Positions 24,125 through 29,156 of a stretch of 64,000 bases of DNA are shown here, piece by piece. The stretch comes from Erythrobacter sp. (lineage in GTDB: Bacteria > Pseudomonadota > Alphaproteobacteria > Sphingomonadales > Sphingomonadaceae). Position 1 is the first letter of the stretch; each line of letters starts with the position of its first letter. The notes under the pieces are model-generated. The model had not been told where the DNA came from. It worked only from the letters and a program-made list of their open reading frames with translations, and made no database searches. The position numbers and the translations under genes were made by a program. The stretch covers positions 144,385-208,384 of the forward strand of contig JAILWQ010000002.1 in NCBI GenBank assembly GCA_025698865.1, written 5' to 3'.

Positions 24125-25942
24125 ATGCTGATGCAGACACACGAAGCCCGCCTCGACGCTCTCCGCCAGGAATTGAAGCGCCGCGATCTCGACGGGTTCG
24201 TGATCCCGATCTCCGACGAGCACATGAGCGAATATGTCGGCGACTATGCCCAGCGCCTGCAATGGCTGACCGGGTTCAAGGGCAGCGCGGGCAGCGCCGC
24301 CGTGATGCGCGATCGGGCCGCGATCTTCACCGACGGCCGCTACACCGTGCAGGTGCGCGAACAGGTCGACGGCAAGCTGTTCGATTACGAGGACGTGCCC
24401 GCCACCAGTCCGGCGAAATGGCTGGCGAAGCACGCGCGCGAGGGGATGCGGATCGGCTACGACGCCTGGCTCCACGGCGTCGAATGGGCCGAGGATGCGG
24501 CAAAGCTCCTCGCCAAGAAGGGCGCGGAACTCGTCCCGGTCGAAGGCAATCCGATCGACGCCGTCTGGGCCGACCGCCCCGCCCCCTCCGCCGCGCCGGC
24601 CGTCCCTTATTCGGACGAGCACGCCGGCCGTTCCAGCGCCGAGAAGCGCGCCGAGATCGCCGACTGGCTACAGGAGGAAGGCTACGACGCGACCATCGTC
24701 GCCGCGCTCGATTCGGTCGCCTGGCTGCTCAACATGCGCGGGGCCGACGTCGCCAATACGCCGGTCGCACTGTCCTATGTCACGGTCCATTCCGACGGGA
24801 CGGCCGAGCTGTTCATCGCGCCCGAAAAGGTCTCGCCCGAGCTTGCCCAGCATCTCGGCAATGCGGTGAAAGTCCGCGACCGCGGCGAATTCGAAAGCGC
24901 TCTCGGGTCGTTGAAGGGCAAGACGGTGGCGGTCGACACCAACCATGCGGTCGCCGGCATTTTCCAGGCGCTGGAGGATGGCGGGGCCAGGGTGGTACGG
25001 ACCGACGATCCGACCGTGCTCGCCAAGGCGATCAAGAACGCAGCGGAACAGCGCGGTCACCGCGAAGCGCAGGCGCGCGACGGGGCGGCGGTGTCGCGCT
25101 TCCTGCGCTGGCTGAGCGCGGAGGCACCCAAGGGCGGCGTGGACGAGCTGACCGCTGCCGCCAAGCTGCGCGAATTCCGCGGATTGGACCCCGAAATGCG
25201 CGATTCGAGCTTCGACACGATCAGCGCCGCCGGGCCACACTCCGCCCTGCCGCACTACAAGGTGGACGAGGACAGCAACATCCCGATCCCGCCGGGCAGC
25301 ATCTACCTGGTCGATTCGGGCGGCCAGTATCTCGGCGGCACGACCGACATCACCCGCACGGTCTGGGTCGCAACGCCGGACGGATCGGCCCAGCCGAGCG
25401 CGGAAATGATCGACCGCAACACCCGCGTGCTGAAGGGCCATATCCAGCTCGCGCTCGCGACCTTCCCGCAAGGCACCAATGGCGGCCAGCTCGACACTCT
25501 GGCGCGGATGCATCTGTGGCAGGCAGGCGTCGATTTCGGCCACGGCACCGGCCACGGCGTCGGCAGCTATCTCGCGGTGCACGAGGGGCCGCAGCGCATT
25601 TCCAAGCCGGGCGGCGCCTTCGCCGGAACCGGCACACCGCTCCATGCGGGCATGATCCTGTCGAACGAGCCGGGCTATTACAAGGCGGGCGCCTACGGCA
25701 TCCGGATCGAGAACCTGATTCTGACCGTCCCTGCCGACATTCAGGGCGCGGAGGGCGAGTGGCTCGGCTTCGAGACGCTGACCTTCGTCCCGCTCGACCG
25801 GAGGCTGGTCGACAAGGCGCTGCTGACCGATGCCGAGATCGACTGGTGGAATGCTTACCACGCCGAGGTTCGCGACGTGCTGTCGCCGCGCCTCGAGGGC
25901 GAGGATCTGGCCTGGCTCGAAGCGGAGTGCGCGCCGCTCTGA
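24125..25942 (+). CDS. Xaa-Pro aminopeptidase (aminopeptidase P, M24B)
   Basis: 'DEHMSEY', 'TGFKGSAG', 'DGRY', 'DSGGQY..GTTDITRT', 'HGTGHGVG...VHEGP', 'SNEPGYY', 'GIRIEN'. Confidence 0.94.
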   Translation: MLMQTHEARLDALRQELKRRDLDGFVIPISDEHMSEYVGDYAQRLQWLTGFKGSAGSAAVMRDRAAIFTDGRYTVQVREQVDGKLFDYEDVPATSPAKWLAKHAREGMRIGYDAWLHGVEWAEDAAKLLAKKGAELVPVEGNPIDAVWADRPAPSAAPAVPYSDEHAGRSSAEKRAEIADWLQEEGYDATIVAALDSVAWLLNMRGADVANTPVALSYVTVHSDGTAELFIAPEKVSPELAQHLGNAVKVRDRGEFESALGSLKGKTVAVDTNHAVAGIFQALEDGGARVVRTDDPTVLAKAIKNAAEQRGHREAQARDGAAVSRFLRWLSAEAPKGGVDELTAAAKLREFRGLDPEMRDSSFDTISAAGPHSALPHYKVDEDSNIPIPPGSIYLVDSGGQYLGGTTDITRTVWVATPDGSAQPSAEMIDRNTRVLKGHIQLALATFPQGTNGGQLDTLARMHLWQAGVDFGHGTGHGVGSYLAVHEGPQRISKPGGAFAGTGTPLHAGMILSNEPGYYKAGAYGIRIENLILTVPADIQGAEGEWLGFETLTFVPLDRRLVDKALLTDAEIDWWNAYHAEVRDVLSPRLEGEDLAWLEAECAPL

Positions 25943-26001
25943 CGTGGTCAGGGCCCCGTTCGCTGGCGCTTCGATGAACGGGGGCGGGGCCGCGATACAC
26001 T

Positions 26002-26043
26002 CTGCGACAATTCGGCCCGATCCCGGCAAAGTGCTGCGACAAT
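26002..26043 (+). promoter_or_regulatory. Perfect 10-bp direct repeat CTGCGACAAT x2 upstream of the EF-hand gene
   Basis: Copies at 26002-26011 and 26034-26043, 32 bp apart (about 3 helical turns). Confidence 0.5.
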
Positions 26044-26069
26044 GAAGCCCTAGAAGGGTCACATGAGTT

Positions 26070-26118
26070 GCGGCGGGCCGGGATACCTCCCCCCCCCCTT
26101 TCCGTTCCGGTCCGTCGC
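26070..26118 (+). ncRNA. Structured leader or sRNA hairpin with a CCUCC/poly-C loop
   Basis: 14-bp stem (26070-26083 with 26105-26118) with 3 G-U pairs that form only on the + strand; the loop carries CCUCC and a C10 run. Confidence 0.5.
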
Positions 26119-26150
26119 GGCTCCCCCTTTCCTTGTCCCGGAGCAGCGAC

Positions 26151-26873
26151 ATGAAGACCTTTTTCCTCACCCTTTCCGCCGGCACTCTCGCGCTGACGGG
26201 CGCCACCGCCGTCTTCGCGCAGGACCGCACGCCCATGGTCAAACGCGACGGCAATGGCGACGGCACGATCACCCGCGCCGAGATGCAGGCCCACGGCGCG
26301 GCGATGTTCGCGCGGATGGACGCCAATGGCGACGGGCGGATCGATACCGCCGACCGCGCGGCGCGCAAGGCCGAGCGCTTTGCCCGCATGGACCGCGACG
26401 GCAATGGCGAGATCAGCCAGGCCGAGATGGACGCCAACCGGGCCGAACGCCGCGAGCGGATGGAGCAGCACCGCGCCGAACGCGCGGAGAAGGCCGGCGA
26501 CCGGCGCGAGCAGATGTTCGCCCGCCTCGACACCGATCGCAGCGGCGGCATCTCGCAAGCCGAGATGGATGCCGCCCGTTCGCAGCGCGGCGAAGGCGGC
26601 GAAGCGCGTGCTGACGGCCGCAAGGGCAAGCGCGGCCACCGCATGGGTCGCCGCGGTATGCACCGGGGCGGCATGATGATGGGTATGATGCGTCAGGCCG
26701 ACACCAACAATGATCAGGCCCTCACTCGCGCGGAATTCGACGCCGCGCTGACGCAGCACTTCAGCCGGCTCGACACCGACGGCAACGGATCGATCACGCA
26801 GGCCGAGCGCCAGGCAGCGCGCGAGGCGATGCGCGCCCGCATGACCGAGCGTCGCGGCCAGCGCGGCCAATGA
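26151..26873 (+). CDS. Secreted EF-hand protein (6 EF-hand loops)
   Basis: Signal peptide; loops DGNGDGTITRAE, DANGDGRIDTAD, DRDGNGEISQAE, DTDRSGGISQAE, DTNNDQALTRAE, DTDGNGSITQAE. Confidence 0.92.
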   Translation: MKTFFLTLSAGTLALTGATAVFAQDRTPMVKRDGNGDGTITRAEMQAHGAAMFARMDANGDGRIDTADRAARKAERFARMDRDGNGEISQAEMDANRAERRERMEQHRAERAEKAGDRREQMFARLDTDRSGGISQAEMDAARSQRGEGGEARADGRKGKRGHRMGRRGMHRGGMMMGMMRQADTNNDQALTRAEFDAALTQHFSRLDTDGNGSITQAERQAAREAMRARMTERRGQRGQ

Positions 26874-26903
26874 TCTCTGGGTGATCTTCCGGTGATCTTG
26901 CCG
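26871..26903 (+). repeat. Triple 11-bp tandem repeat (TGATCT core), candidate OmpR/PhoB-family operator
   Basis: TGATCTCTGGG / TGATCTTCCGG / TGATCTTGCCG at 26871, 26882 and 26893. Confidence 0.6.
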
Positions 26904-26937
26904 CCCGCCCGGCGGTTGGGGTAGCGCGGGTTCCGCC

Positions 26938-27684
26938 ATGACGAGCGATCCCGCGCCCACCTCCCTCCTCCTCGTCGACGACGAAAGGACCCTGCGCGAG
27001 CCCTTGGCCGAGTATCTCACCGGCCAGGGTTTCGCCGTGCGGGAGGCCGAGAGTGCCGCCGCCGCGCGCTCGACCTTGCGCGACCACACGCCCGACATCG
27101 TCCTGCTCGACATCATGATGCCGGGCGAGGACGGCCTGTCGCTCACCCGCCATCTGGTCGAGACGCAGGGCCTGCCGGTAATTCTGCTCACGGCTAAGGG
27201 CGAGGCGATGGACCGGATCGTCGGGCTGGAGATCGGCGCGGACGACTATGTCACCAAGCCGTTCGAGCCGCGCGAACTTGTCGCCCGCATCCGCACCGTG
27301 CTGCGCCGGGTGGACAAGGGCGCCGACGGCGGGCCCGTTCCGGCTGACGATTTCGTCTATGCCTTCGAAGGCTGGACGCTCGACCCGCTCAAGCGCCGGC
27401 TGACAGATCCCGAGGATGCGGTGGTCTCGATCTCCACCGCCGAATTCCGCCTGCTGCGCGCCCTTTGCGACCACCCGCGCCAGGTGCTCGACCGCGACCG
27501 CCTGCTCGACATGGTGCAGGGGCGCGAGGCGCATCTGTTCGACCGCGCGGTCGACAATCAGGTCAGCCGCCTGCGCCGTAAGATCGAGGCCGACAGCCGC
27601 AACCCGATGTTGATCCAGACCGTGCGCGGCGGCGGCTACCGGCTTGCGGCGGATGTCGCCCGCATCCGTCGCCCGGCGGACTGA
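26938..27684 (+). CDS. OmpR-family response regulator
   Basis: Receiver 'LLVDDE...LLDIMMPGEDG...LLTAK...GADDYVTKPF'; wHTH 'DRAVDNQVSRLRRKIE', 'TVRGGGY'. Confidence 0.95.
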   Translation: MTSDPAPTSLLLVDDERTLREPLAEYLTGQGFAVREAESAAAARSTLRDHTPDIVLLDIMMPGEDGLSLTRHLVETQGLPVILLTAKGEAMDRIVGLEIGADDYVTKPFEPRELVARIRTVLRRVDKGADGGPVPADDFVYAFEGWTLDPLKRRLTDPEDAVVSISTAEFRLLRALCDHPRQVLDRDRLLDMVQGREAHLFDRAVDNQVSRLRRKIEADSRNPMLIQTVRGGGYRLAADVARIRRPAD

Positions 27685-27692
27685 CGCGCGCC

Positions 27693-29156
27693 GTGCGCTC
27701 CTCCCTGCAGATCTGGCCCCGGAGCCTGCTCGGCCAGACCCTGCTGGCGACCGCGCTGGCGCTTCTGGCCGCGCAGGCGATCTCGACGTTCCTGCTATTC
27801 CGCGCCGCCGAGGAGCGGCACGAGACCGCGCTGGTCAACGCCGCCGCCTTTCGCCTGATCGGCGGTGCGCGACCGGATCGCAACGGTCGCGCCATCGCGC
27901 GCGAGCGGCGTGGCGAACGAGCAGACGGCCGGCGGATCGAGCGGCGGGAATGGCCCGGCGGCGGCATGGGGGGAAGCCATTTCCCGCGCCGCTTCGCCTA
28001 CCAGCTGTCTCCCGCCTCGCCCGTACTCGCAGAAGAAACCCGCGACCAAGCGCGCGAGGCCGCGCTGCGCGACCTGCTCGACCGGCAGGGCATCGCCGTC
28101 GCCGACCTGACCGTGACCGAGCGGCCGCTGATGTCCGACCCTCTGTTGCAGAAAGCGAGCGCGCGCCGGCCCCGCCTGCGCACCCGGCTCGCTGCGGAGA
28201 GCGGGCAGGCGCTGCTCGTCGCCGGGCTGCGCCGCGACGGTGCCGCGCAATGGGAGGTGGTCCGCGTGCCCATTCGCGAGCGGGAGAACCGGGCAATCCG
28301 GGCGATCCTTCTCCAGACCCTCGTCCTGTTCGTGGTGCTGATGGGCCTGCTGTGGCTGGTCCTGCGGCGGATCACCCGGCCGCTTGCCGATCTGCGCGCC
28401 CGCACCGCGCGTTTCAGCGCCAGCGGCACGCCGTCCGAGCCGCTGGCGGTGCGCGGGCCTTCCGACATCTCCTCCCTCATCGCCGCGCACAATGCGATGG
28501 AGGCGCGCATCGGCGCCATGCTGAACGAGAAGGACGTGATGCTCGGCGCGATCGGCCACGATCTCAAGACCCCGCTCGCCGCGCTGCGCGTGCGGATCGA
28601 GGCGGTCGAAGACGAAGCCCAGCGCGAGCGCATGGCGGCGACGATCGAGGAACTGGTCCGCACGCTCGACGAGATTCTCGAGCTTGCCCGCGTCGGCCGG
28701 GCGGACGCACCGCCCGAGCGCGCCGAACTCTCGACCCTCGCCGCCTCGGTGGTCGAGGAATTCGAGGATATGGGCCAGCCCGTCGCCATGGCCGAAGGGC
28801 CCCGCATCAGTGCGCCGGTCCACATCACCTGGCTGAAGCGGGGCTTGCGCAATCTGATCGCCAACGCCGTGCGCTATGGCGGCGAGGCCGAAGTTTCGGT
28901 GCAGCGCGAGGGCGATGAAATCGTGCTGAGAGTCGAAGATCGGGGGCCGGGCATCCCCGGGGACCGGATCGCCGCCATGCTCGAACCCTTCGTGCGCGGC
29001 GAGGCGAGCCGCAATCGCGAGACCGGCGGGGCGGGCCTCGGCCTGACGCTCGCCCGCGCGGTTGCCGAGCAGCATGGCGGCGCGCTGGTGCTGACGAACC
29101 GTGCGGGCATTGGAGGTGGGGGCGGGCTGCGCGCCGAGCTGCGCCTGCCCGCCTAG
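27693..29156 (+). CDS. HAMP sensor histidine kinase
   Basis: Two TM segments flanking a periplasmic domain, HAMP, H-box 'GHDLKTPL', N-box '[10 protein letters not shown]', G boxes 'DRGPGI', 'GAGLGL'. Confidence 0.95.

What the first reader, a model, noticed from the sequence alone, without database searches (positions are those of the whole stretch)
26070..26118. G-U-supported hairpin with an anti-SD (CCUCC) plus C10 loop in the EF-hand leader
Seen: 26070-26083 pairs with 26105-26118 over 14 bp, including 3 G-U pairs that would be A-C mismatches on the minus strand, so the structure is strand-specific. The 21-nt loop exposes CCUCC followed by a C-run (C10 at 26089-26098). Known: several alphaproteobacterial sRNA families present CCUCC(UCCC) loops that pair with SD sequences. 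Inference: a 5'UTR-derived sRNA, or a cis element, acting as the non-coding arm of this two-component system. The C-run could also vary in length by slippage.
Basis: partly seen in the sequence, partly recalled or inferred. Interest (0 to 1): 0.6.

Follow-up and report, generated by a model that had tools for sequence, protein, structure and literature searches.

The report
Conserved C-rich hairpin in operon leader
A long RNA hairpin with a cytosine-rich loop sits in front of the gene for a secreted calcium-binding protein and its two regulator genes, is kept in many sphingomonad bacteria, and most likely tunes that operon's own expression.

Summary
The hairpin is real and longer than reported. 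Positions 26065-26084 pair with 26104-26123 (20 bp, 6 wobble pairs), closing a 19-nt loop, ACCUCCCCCCCCCCUUUCC. It folds well only on the + strand.

It is a conserved leader element of an EF-hand / OmpR-like regulator / EnvZ-like kinase operon. A covariance model finds it in 82 of 85 Qipengyuania genomes, and upstream of the same gene in other Erythrobacteraceae and in Novosphingobium. There the stem sequence differs completely but the pairing is kept: 11 of 12 basal pairs carry compensatory changes. The loop keeps a CCUCC/CCCUCCC motif: CCUCC occurs in 76 of 98 loops against 39 expected from composition.

The hairpin starts 9-10 nt after a conserved -10-like CTAGAA box, which follows phased GNGACAAT repeats. 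It is therefore probably at the very 5' end of the mRNA.

No Rfam family matches, no terminator follows, and no free-standing copy exists. A leader peptide, and SD masking by the flanking linker, were tested and not supported.

C10 is the longest run in the family; a ~96% identical relative has C7.

Best reading: a cis-acting 5' leader element. A trans-acting sRNA is not excluded. No transcript data were available.

The parts
25975..25980 (+). Conserved TGAACG box at the 5' edge of the conserved promoter block
   Evidence: Conserved in the alignment of 18 orthologous upstream regions. Upstream of this box synteny and sequence differ between species.
25993..26011 (+). Distal pair of direct repeats (CGATACAC, then GCGACAAT 10 nt later). 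Inferred binding site of the OmpR-type response regulator.
   Evidence: Repeats conserved across genera. The 10-nt phase is read. Binding itself is inferred, not tested.
26025..26043 (+). Proximal pair of direct repeats (GGCAAAGT, then GCGACAAT 11 nt later) overlapping the -35 position
   Evidence: The spacer from GNGACA to the -10-like hexamer is 8 nt in 93 of 95 leaders.
26050..26055 (+). -10-like hexamer CTAGAA
   Evidence: CTAGAA or a close variant (CTAGAC, GTAGAA, CTATAA, CTATAT and others) was found in 96 of 101 leaders. It resembles the Caulobacter RpoD -10 consensus GCtANAWC quoted in PMC8144410 (passages read).
26061..26063 (+). Predicted transcription start region (inferred only)
   Evidence: These positions are 6-8 nt after the hexamer. 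The hairpin begins 9-10 nt after the hexamer in 88 of 96 leaders. No 5'-end data were available.
26065..26084 (+). P1 5' arm
   Evidence: Covariation.
26085..26103 (+). P1 loop ACCUCCCCCCCCCCUUUCC, with CCUCC at 26086-26090 and C10 at 26089-26098
   Evidence: Across 98 leaders the loops are 63% C, 24% U, 9% A and 4% G. The motif is enriched over composition.
26104..26123 (+). P1 3' arm
26124..26139 (+). C/U-rich linker CCCCUUUCCUUGUCCC
   Evidence: The proposed pairing of this linker with the SD is not supported.
26140..26143 (+). Shine-Dalgarno GGAG, 7 nt before the ATG
   Evidence: GGAG is invariant or nearly so in alignment A1.
26151..26873 (+). Gene for a secreted EF-hand protein (240 aa)
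26938..27684 (+). OmpR-family response regulator
   Evidence: Pfam Response_reg plus Trans_reg_C. The best NCBIfam model is OmpR at 231.7 bits, below its cut-off of 331.
27693..29156 (+). EnvZ-like histidine kinase
   Evidence: Pfam HAMP, HisKA and HATPase_c. The best NCBIfam model is EnvZ at 170.1 bits, below its cut-off of 415.

Best explanation
P1 is a cis-acting leader element of the EF-hand / response-regulator / kinase operon.

The operon is read from a promoter with no good -35 element. That promoter carries two phased pairs of GNGACAAT-type direct repeats and a -10-like CTAGAA box. The repeats are presumably bound by the operon's own OmpR-like regulator. Transcription should start 1-4 nt before the hairpin, so the mRNA would begin with a 12-20 bp stem-loop.

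The stem, kept by compensatory change, would protect the 5' end from 5'-end-dependent decay and so set the level of the autoregulated message. The large single-stranded loop presents a conserved CCUCC/CCCUCCC tract that can pair with a GGAG-type purine tract. The nearest such tract is the operon's own Shine-Dalgarno sequence about 50 nt downstream, so the loop would damp or modulate translation.

Shown: the structure, its strand, its conservation and covariation, the loop motif, its fixed distance from the promoter boxes, and its linkage to the operon.

Inferred: the transcription start, regulator binding, any effect on stability or translation, and the loop's pairing partner.
For: Structure and strand:
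- The hairpin folds at -25.8 kcal/mol, z = -3.45, on the + strand only.

Distribution:
- CM R1 finds it once in the window's own genome. It matches in 82 of 85 genus genomes at E <= 0.01, and 75 of those are at E <= 1e-5.
- Every match examined lies directly upstream of the EF-hand gene.
- Outside the genus, 30 of 67 loci searched have a sense match at E <= 0.01 in the same place.

Covariation:
- Stem sequences in other genera are quite different (GAAGCCGCCGG.., GAAAGUCGCGGGG.., GGACAGCGGG..) yet remain paired.
- On 41 leaders, P1 is 98.3% paired and 11 of 12 pairs have changes on both sides. The covariation score is 0.421, against 0.164 +/- 0.012 for shuffles (0 of 500 reach it) and 0.05-0.11 for slid partners.
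- RNAalifold on an alignment not fitted to the structure predicts the same helix.
- About 11% of stem cells are G-U, which would be A-C on the other strand.

Loop motif:
- CCUCC occurs in 76 of 98 loops, against 39.2 +/- 4.6 after shuffling each loop. CCCUCCC occurs in 50, against 13.5 +/- 3.2.

Promoter geometry:
- The hairpin starts 9-10 nt after the -10-like hexamer in 88 of 96 leaders. GNGACA ends 8 nt before the hexamer in 93 of 95.
- The promoter block is unique in the genome (nhmmer: one hit at 6e-17, next best E > 1).

Against a released sRNA:
- No terminator follows the hairpin.
- No free-standing copies exist.

Stem without loop:
- The stem persists where the loop is lost. One Qipengyuania leader has a 10-bp stem with a 3-5-nt loop (L013). 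Sphingopyxis leaders have short pyrimidine loops.
- This fits a structural role for the stem separate from the loop.
Against: - No transcript data were available, so the start site, the existence of the 5' leader and any processing are all unverified.
- A second promoter-like pair (TGAACG, 12-13 nt, GATACAAT) could place the start about 55 nt upstream of the hairpin (read by eye).
- Masking of the SD by ordinary nested pairing is not supported. The energy to open the SD is 3.88 kcal/mol, against 3.80 with a shuffled linker; the real value is higher in only 24 of 57 leaders (Wilcoxon p ~ 1).
- In the window itself the SD is more open (1.9 kcal/mol) than in all 30 shuffles.
- The CUCC/GGAG helix shows no covariation, and RNAalifold does not predict it.
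- Loop-to-SD pairing would be a pseudoknot and was not modelled.
- The loop does not co-vary with the bases flanking GGAG in species whose SD reads GGAGU or GGAGC (read).
- CCCUCCC fits GGGAGGG better than it fits the operon's own GGAGA/GGAGC.
- Loss of the loop in L013 without any visible compensating change suggests the loop is dispensable.
- The sequences are related, so the shuffle statistics overstate independence.
Confidence: 0.5

Rival explanations
1. The hairpin is released from the leader, by cleavage in the C/U-rich linker or by premature 3'-end formation. It then acts in trans as a small RNA whose CCUCC/CCCUCCC loop pairs with G-rich ribosome-binding sites. That would make it the non-coding output of the two-component system.
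For: - The exposed C-rich loop sits on a stable hairpin predicted to be 5'-terminal.
- The motif is conserved beyond what composition explains, and it fits GGGAGGG better than the operon's own SD.
- Caulobacter GsrN uses a 5' C-rich loop to pair with a G-tract in the katG leader. That paper states that Erythrobacter litoralis has no apparent gsrN-like gene (PMC5869019, passages read).
- Cuckoo sRNAs carry CCUCCUCCC loops (PMC4615179, passages read).
- A crude ORF scan finds genes in this genome with GGGGAGGGG-type sites 5-6 nt before the start codon. This is exploratory only and was not tested for conservation.
Against: - No terminator-like site follows the hairpin, and the 3' flank has no U-tract.
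- The element is always 27-60 nt from the EF-hand start and never free-standing.
- No Rfam sRNA family matches.
- The loop has been lost in one species and in Sphingopyxis.
- No target was tested.
Confidence: 0.17
2. The loop is a docking site for a trans-acting factor: a G-rich small RNA or an RNA-binding protein that prefers C/U-rich single strands. That factor controls this mRNA and a few others that carry similar hairpins.
For: Similar hairpins with long stems and CCCUCCC-type loops occur at other loci:
- Between ahpC and ahpF in the window's own genome (17-bp stem, loop ACCCCCCUCCCCC), and at the same place in three relatives.
- Upstream of a small secreted protein, a DUF692-like gene and a small helical protein in relatives.

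In the own genome the EF-hand hairpin and the ahpC-ahpF hairpin are the two clear outliers by stem length.
Against: - No candidate G-rich-loop small RNA was found in the genome.
- With loose criteria, C-rich-loop hairpins (139) are no more frequent than G-rich-loop hairpins (146).
- No factor is known. The other loci were found only as weak model hits of 22-30 bits.
Confidence: 0.18
3. The inverted repeat works at the DNA level: as an operator for a dimeric regulator, as a cruciform, or as a G-quadruplex / i-motif in the C-rich tract just after the start site.
For: It lies immediately downstream of the promoter boxes. The template strand of the loop is G-rich.
Against: - The distance between the two arms varies from 3 to more than 50 nt, which a fixed dimer site would not tolerate.
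- Arm sequences change freely with compensation, and about 11% of stem cells are G-U.
- The opposite strand scores far lower with the model (16-29 bits against 50-81).
- Only 13 of 98 interiors have four C3+ tracts.
Confidence: 0.04
4. The C-rich tract encodes a proline-rich leader peptide whose translation controls the operon.
For: In the window, a frame starting at TTG 26068 reads 28 codons, including PPPP. Its TGA stop overlaps the EF-hand ATG as ATGA.
Against: Across 72 leaders:
- The codon at that place is CTG in 54, TTG in 17 and ATG in 1.
- The frame relative to the main ORF is 0 in 34 and otherwise in 38.
- 15 leaders have in-frame stops.
- The peptides are not alike beyond LRR.

The putative start also lies inside the stem and has no SD.
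Confidence: 0.02

Closest known systems
Cuckoo / RSs0680 (CcsR) small RNAs of Rhizobiales and Rhodobacterales (PMC4615179, passages read)
   Same: Hairpins with variable stems whose loops carry a conserved anti-SD-like C/U motif. They are co-transcribed with a protein gene.
   Different: - Cuckoo RNAs have 2-4 adjacent hairpins, each with CCUCCUCCC, lying downstream of their gene and ending in a terminator.
- This element is a single hairpin upstream of its gene, with a CCCUCCC-type loop. The exact CCUCCUCCC occurs in only 1 of 58 leaders.
- It is 59 nt long, it occurs in Sphingomonadales, and no Rfam model matches.
GsrN of Caulobacter (PMC5869019, passages read)
   Same: A 5' hairpin that exposes a C-rich loop, which in GsrN pairs with a G-tract in a target leader. 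The 5' hairpin of GsrN is the conserved and functional part.
   Different: GsrN is a free-standing sRNA driven by an EcfG-type promoter near the general stress locus. Here no GGAAC-N15-18-CGTT motif lies upstream (0 of 58), the hairpin is part of an mRNA leader, and the promoter looks regulator-dependent. Sequence likeness to GsrN could not be tested.
5'-terminal stabilising stem-loops of bacterial mRNAs, such as the ompA leader (recalled from memory; no paper read here)
   Same: A stable hairpin predicted within a few nucleotides of the 5' end, whose pairing rather than sequence is conserved.
   Different: The start site here is only predicted. Such stabilisers need no large loop with a conserved motif.
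Activator-dependent promoters of the OmpR/PhoB family with phased direct repeats in place of a -35 box (recalled from memory; Caulobacter RpoD consensus from PMC8144410)
   Same: Two pairs of direct repeats with 10-11-nt phase. The proximal pair ends 8 nt before a -10-like box. The adjacent regulator is OmpR-like.
   Different: No binding data exist. The repeat consensus GNGACAAT is not one I can assign to a known regulator.

Membership tests
Cuckoo / RSs0680 RNA family | 2 to 4 adjacent hairpins, each carrying the motif | tested here: not met
   Only one hairpin is predicted by RNAfold and by RNAalifold.
Cuckoo / RSs0680 RNA family | Loop motif CCUCCUCCC | tested here: not met
   The window's loop is ACCUCCCCCCCCCCUUUCC. 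The exact motif occurs in 1 of 58 leaders. The CCUCC core occurs in 76 of 98 loops.
Cuckoo / RSs0680 RNA family | Hairpin of 24-50 nt with a loop of 9-27 nt (limits quoted in PMC4615179) | tested here: not met
   The hairpin is 59 nt (26065-26123), which is outside the limits. The 19-nt loop is within them.
Any Rfam 15 family | Match at the family's gathering score | tested here: not met
   There were 0 matches in the whole window. In 25940-26200 only generic miRNA-precursor models matched, at E 0.44-6.9 and 13.6-19.3 bits against cut-offs of 96-168. No match fell on the leader in 14 related loci.
GsrN | EcfG-type promoter GGAAC-N16/17-CGTT | tested here: not met
   The regex GGAAC.{15,18}CGTT matched the 200 nt upstream of 0 of 58 leaders.
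GsrN | Free-standing sRNA gene | tested here: not met
   The hairpin ends 27 nt before the EF-hand ATG. No terminator is present. All copies are upstream of the gene.
GsrN | Exposed C-rich loop in the 5' hairpin | tested here: met
GsrN | Sequence homology to Caulobacter GsrN | not testable with these tools
Intrinsic terminator / attenuator | G+C-rich hairpin followed directly by a U-tract | tested here: not met
   There were 0 terminator-like sites in 25500-27000. The 3' flank is CCCCUUUCCUUG.
5'-terminal stabilising stem-loop | Hairpin within a few nt of the transcript's 5' end | tested here: inconclusive
   Supported only by geometry: the hairpin starts 9-10 nt after the -10-like hexamer in 88 of 96 leaders. 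No 5'-end data were available.
5'-terminal stabilising stem-loop | Pairing conserved irrespective of sequence | tested here: met
   11 of 12 basal pairs have changes on both sides, and 98.3% of cells are paired.
Cis anti-SD (SD-masking) leader | An anti-SD sequence in the leader | tested here: met
   CCUCC lies in the loop (26086-26090). CUCC-type tracts lie in the linker in most orthologues.
Cis anti-SD (SD-masking) leader | SD occluded more than expected, or anti-SD:SD pairs that co-vary | tested here: not met
   The SD opening energy is 3.88 kcal/mol, against 3.80 with a shuffled linker. The CUCC/GGAG pairs show no covariation. Loop-to-SD pseudoknot pairing was not modelled.
OmpR/PhoB-type activated promoter | Phased direct repeats next to a -10 box, with a poor -35 | tested here: met
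   Repeat phases of 10 and 11 nt are read. The repeats are conserved. The 8-nt spacer holds in 93 of 95 leaders. The sigma-70 consensus scan finds no canonical promoter.
OmpR/PhoB-type activated promoter | Binding and activation by the cognate regulator | not testable with these tools
   This needs EMSA or footprinting, plus a regulator mutant.

The most novel reading that the evidence does not exclude
The EF-hand mRNA is a dual-function transcript. Its 5' hairpin would be cut off and persist as a C-rich-loop small RNA made on command of the two-component system. It would then pair with GGGAGGG-type ribosome-binding sites of other genes. This would be a functional counterpart, in Erythrobacteraceae and Novosphingobium, of the C-rich-loop sRNAs of other alphaproteobacteria. 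The C-run length (C10 against C5-C7) would tune its reach.
Probability: 0.12. Interest if true: 0.7.

Novelty: new member of a known kind. Interest (0 to 1): 0.42.

Why it matters
This is a well-supported structured RNA motif that is not in Rfam. About a hundred distinct examples were collected from Erythrobacteraceae and Novosphingobium, all tied to one operon: a secreted EF-hand protein with an OmpR/EnvZ-like pair. The motif comes with a clean promoter architecture and natural variants, including loss of the loop, a C7 against C10 run, and a triplicated loop. These variants make its function directly testable. It offers a simple entry point into how sphingomonads control a probable calcium-sensing envelope system. 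It also bears on what conserved C-rich loops do when they sit in an mRNA leader rather than in a small RNA.

Tried and rejected
- **Rfam.** The gathering-score scan of the window gave 0 matches. The E-value scan of 25940-26200 gave only generic long-hairpin matches to miRNA precursor models. A scan of 14 related loci gave only a terC RNA elsewhere in L190.
- **Terminator and sigma-70 consensus scans.** Both gave 0 sites.
- **Repeat in the own genome.** BLAST and the covariance model find one copy only.
- **Leader peptide.** Rejected, because start codon, frame and peptide are not conserved.
- **SD masking by the linker ("P2").** I proposed this. It is not supported by covariation, by RNAalifold or by opening energies against shuffled linkers.
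- **G-quadruplex / i-motif.** Only 13 of 98 interiors have four C3+ tracts.
- **EcfG-type promoter.** 0 of 58 leaders.
- **Other copies of the promoter block in the genome.** None.
- **Conserved G-rich partner upstream of the regulator gene.** None seen in 21 loci.
- **G-rich-loop small RNA in the genome.** No candidate.
- **Genome-wide excess of C-rich-loop hairpins.** None with loose criteria (139 against 146).
- **RNA-seq.** No RNA holder was listed for the stretch, so expression, the start site and short products could not be examined. The four runs that were laid are contigs only.
- **Earlier notes of this scan.** Nothing was found by place, by sequence or by words.
- **ChvR.** I recalled that Caulobacter ChvR uses a C-rich loop. 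The paper in the listing holds no occurrence of "C-rich", so I make no such claim.
- **Candidate G-rich ribosome-binding sites.** These were listed from a crude ORF scan but not tested for conservation.

Full report
**Observation.** It extends to a 20-bp helix, 26065-26084 with 26104-26123, with six wobble pairs. The loop is 19 nt, ACCUCCCCCCCCCCUUUCC, with CCUCC at 26086-26090 and C10 at 26089-26098.

The 49-nt core folds at -25.8 kcal/mol (z = -3.45; 1 of 200 shuffles as good). The reverse complement folds differently, at -18.4 kcal/mol (z = +0.41). Only four C or G runs of nine or more occur in the 3.16-Mb genome.

**Gene context.** The hairpin ends 27 nt before the ATG (26151) of a 240-aa protein with a signal-peptide-like N-terminus and several EF-hands. 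This gene is followed on the same strand by an OmpR-family response regulator and an EnvZ-like kinase. Upstream lies an M24 peptidase gene that ends at 25942.

**Conservation within the genus.** The EF-hand gene has orthologues in 19 of the first 24 same-genus genomes searched. About 200 nt upstream of it is conserved, although the gene further upstream differs between species.

A covariance model built on 18 leaders (A1, R1) matched once in the window's own genome. It matched in 82 of 85 genomes of the genus at E <= 0.01, with 75 of those at E <= 1e-5. Some of the weakest matches are other hairpins. Record titles show that the genus is Qipengyuania, family Erythrobacteraceae.

**Conservation beyond the genus.** I searched 67 of the 80 related loci. 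The 13 left out bore Qipengyuania titles or repeated genomes already held. Of the 67, 30 have a sense match at E <= 0.01 just upstream of the gene. These include Allopontixanthobacter, Pontixanthobacter, Parerythrobacter, Croceibacterium, Porphyrobacter and about ten Novosphingobium. In those the stem sequence is quite different but the hairpin and a C-rich loop are kept.

Sphingopyxis orthologues keep the promoter boxes and a shorter hairpin with a small pyrimidine loop. The regulator gene follows the EF-hand gene in 63 of the 80 loci. The 17 without it are non-sphingomonad, truncated, or a paralogue that also lacks the leader.

**Covariation.** On the MAFFT alignment of 18 leaders, the 12 basal pairs are 99.5% paired and three pairs have changes on both sides. 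RNAalifold predicts the same helix and nothing else.

On 41 leaders from several genera (A4), P1 is 98.3% paired, and 11 of 12 pairs have changes on both sides. To exclude minus-strand matches I set an E cut-off of 3e-4, which also dropped five weak sense matches. The covariation score is 0.421, against 0.164 +/- 0.012 for shuffles (0 of 500 reach it) and 0.048-0.113 for slid partners.

A4 was fitted to the model and the sequences are related, so these figures lean towards the structure. Even so, entirely different arm sequences pairing in other genera is visible by eye. About 11% of stem cells are G-U. The opposite strand scores 16-29 bits against 50-81 for the sense strand. This is a sense-strand RNA structure.

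**The loop.** I collected 101 leaders, of which 98 are distinct; two minus-strand rows of A2 were removed. The largest unpaired run is 63% C, 24% U, 9% A and 4% G, with a median length of 16 nt and a range of 3-32.

- CCUCC is present in 76 of 98 loops, against 39.2 +/- 4.6 when each loop is shuffled.
- CCCUCCC is present in 50, against 13.5 +/- 3.2. Relatedness inflates this contrast.
- The longest C-run per loop is 5 or 6 in 68 of 98, never above 7 except in the window's C10.
- Contigs from four metagenome runs carry a ~96% identical relative. It has three fewer Cs (C7), C26086>T, C26127>T and two changes at 26060-26061, with no change in either arm.
- One Qipengyuania leader (L013) has only a 3-5-nt loop on a 10-bp stem.
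- One Pontixanthobacter leader has a triplicated loop unit.

Loop length is therefore free, the C-run expands and contracts between lineages, and the motif is usually kept but can be lost.

**Promoter geometry.** The conserved block reads as follows:

TGAACG - N13 - (C)GATACAA - 2 nt - GCGACAAT - about 12 nt - CGGCATAAAG - CTGCGACAAT - N - CTAGAA - N9-10 - hairpin

- In the window the repeats begin at 25993, 26004, 26025 and 26036. The phases are 10, 21 and 11 nt, so all lie on one face of the helix.
- GNGACA ends 8 nt before the hexamer in 93 of 95 leaders.
- The hairpin begins 9-10 nt after the hexamer in 88 of 96 leaders. In 5 of 101 my pattern found no hexamer.
- CTAGAA, which is CTATAT in two leaders, resembles the -10 part of the Caulobacter RpoD consensus GCtANAWC (PMC8144410, passages read).
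- There is no good -35, and the simple sigma-70 scan finds nothing.

I read this as an activator-dependent promoter with regulator boxes. The adjacent regulator is OmpR-like, and the block occurs once in the genome. Transcription would start about 26061-26063. All of this is inference.

A second promoter-like pair (TGAACG with GATACAAT) could instead start transcription near 26008. In either case the hairpin is transcribed as part of the leader.

**What it does.**
- *Leader peptide: rejected.* The window has a 28-codon TTG frame with PPPP that ends in ATGA at the EF-hand start. In 72 leaders the codon at that place is CTG in 54, the frame relative to the main ORF is scattered (34 in frame, 38 not), and the peptides are unlike.
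- *SD masking by the linker: not supported.* There is no covariation and RNAalifold does not predict the helix. The SD opening energy is 3.88 kcal/mol against 3.80 for shuffled linkers. This covers 57 leaders; only 58 distinct leaders had 30 nt of downstream sequence, and one of those lacked a recognisable SD. In the window the SD is more open than in all 30 shuffles.
- *DNA-level readings: disfavoured.* Arm spacing varies, G-U pairs are frequent, and only 13 of 98 interiors have four C3+ tracts.
- *Terminator: absent*.

What remains is a stem selected for pairing at a fixed place right after the promoter, and a loop selected to display CCUCC/CCCUCCC.

The most economical reading is a cis element. 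The stem would act as a 5'-terminal hairpin that sets mRNA stability. The loop would be an anti-SD-like tract that pairs with a purine tract, its own SD being the nearest. I put this at 0.5.

A released sRNA (0.17) and a docking site for a shared trans factor (0.18) stay open. The shared-factor reading draws on similar long hairpins with CCCUCCC loops at other places. One lies between ahpC and ahpF in this genome and in three relatives. Others lie upstream of three other small genes in relatives. I found no G-rich partner RNA.

**Comparison with known systems.** No Rfam family matches.
- Cuckoo/RSs0680 RNAs share the anti-SD-like loop. They differ in hairpin number, exact motif, size, position relative to the gene, and taxon (PMC4615179).
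- GsrN shares the 5' C-rich loop but is a free-standing EcfG-dependent sRNA (PMC5869019).

The element works like these in displaying a C-rich loop, but it is not a member of either family. It is best filed as a new, well-supported leader motif of a known general kind.

**Limits.** No transcript data were available; no RNA holder was listed. Supplementary data of the papers were not consulted. The pseudoknot between loop and SD was not modelled. All statistics are across related genomes.

Noticed in passing
Own genome outside the window, G000:C34:105575-105621 (- strand). Also L199:401-481, L202:401-480 and L203:301-381.: Between ahpC and ahpF lies a 15-17-bp hairpin with a loop ACCCCCCUCCCCC, followed by UUUUGG/UUUUCC. 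In relatives the loop is AUUUGCCUCCCCCCCCC, with a C9 run. It looks like a terminator or attenuator carrying the same kind of C-rich loop as the EF-hand leader.
   Followed up: partly
Own genome outside the window, G000:C29:193808-194018 (+ strand): A 26-codon hydrophobic ORF (MRFAVNILAFLAASAVSTLMLVPHIA) is flanked by two hairpins with CCCUCCC-type loops: CACUCCCUCCCAUUUC before its SD, and UUCCUCUCCCCCAGAACCCC after its stop.
   Followed up: no
L189, L192, L193, L195, L196 (hits at about 301-378). Also L190/L191 and L197/L198.: Weak matches of the leader model (22-30 bits) are hairpins with C-rich loops upstream of three other genes in relatives: a small secreted protein (..YRDLDL..), a small helical protein (MTARMFRLTQIHQRIDERL..) and a DUF692-like gene. 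The first group has a stem, UGCGGCGGGCC/GGUCCGCCGCA, much like the EF-hand P1.
   Followed up: partly
L190:503-563 (- strand): A terC RNA (Rfam RF03067) matches at 60.9 bits, above its gathering score of 39.9. It lies next to one of those loci.
   Followed up: no
window 26068-26154 (+): A TTG-initiated 28-codon frame runs through the hairpin, encodes PPPP from the C-run, and ends in a TGA that overlaps the EF-hand ATG (ATGA). It is not conserved in orthologues.
   Followed up: yes
window 26897-26926 (+): Between the EF-hand and regulator genes, a CTTGCC ... (G)TAGCG/CTAGGCGCG pair spaced about 18 nt is shared by many orthologous loci. It may be an internal promoter giving basal expression of the regulator and kinase.
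   Followed up: no
window 25943-25994 (+): A G+C-rich hairpin lies directly after the stop of the M24 peptidase gene. It has no U-tract, and its fold is no better than shuffles (z = -0.27 for 25943-26040). The conserved TGAACG box lies in its 3' arm.
   Followed up: partly
L126:1348-1476 (+): In a Pontixanthobacter MAG, the loop of the leader hairpin holds three tandem copies of a ~14-nt unit (GGGCCCUCUCCCCU). The loop therefore also grows by tandem duplication.
   Followed up: no
L135, L136, L138-L142, L151, L156 (about 60-10 nt before the gene): Sphingopyxis orthologues keep the promoter boxes. Their hairpin is shorter, has a small pyrimidine loop (CCUUUG, CCUCCUGU, CUCUC) and abuts the SD. 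The gene starts with GTG.
   Followed up: partly
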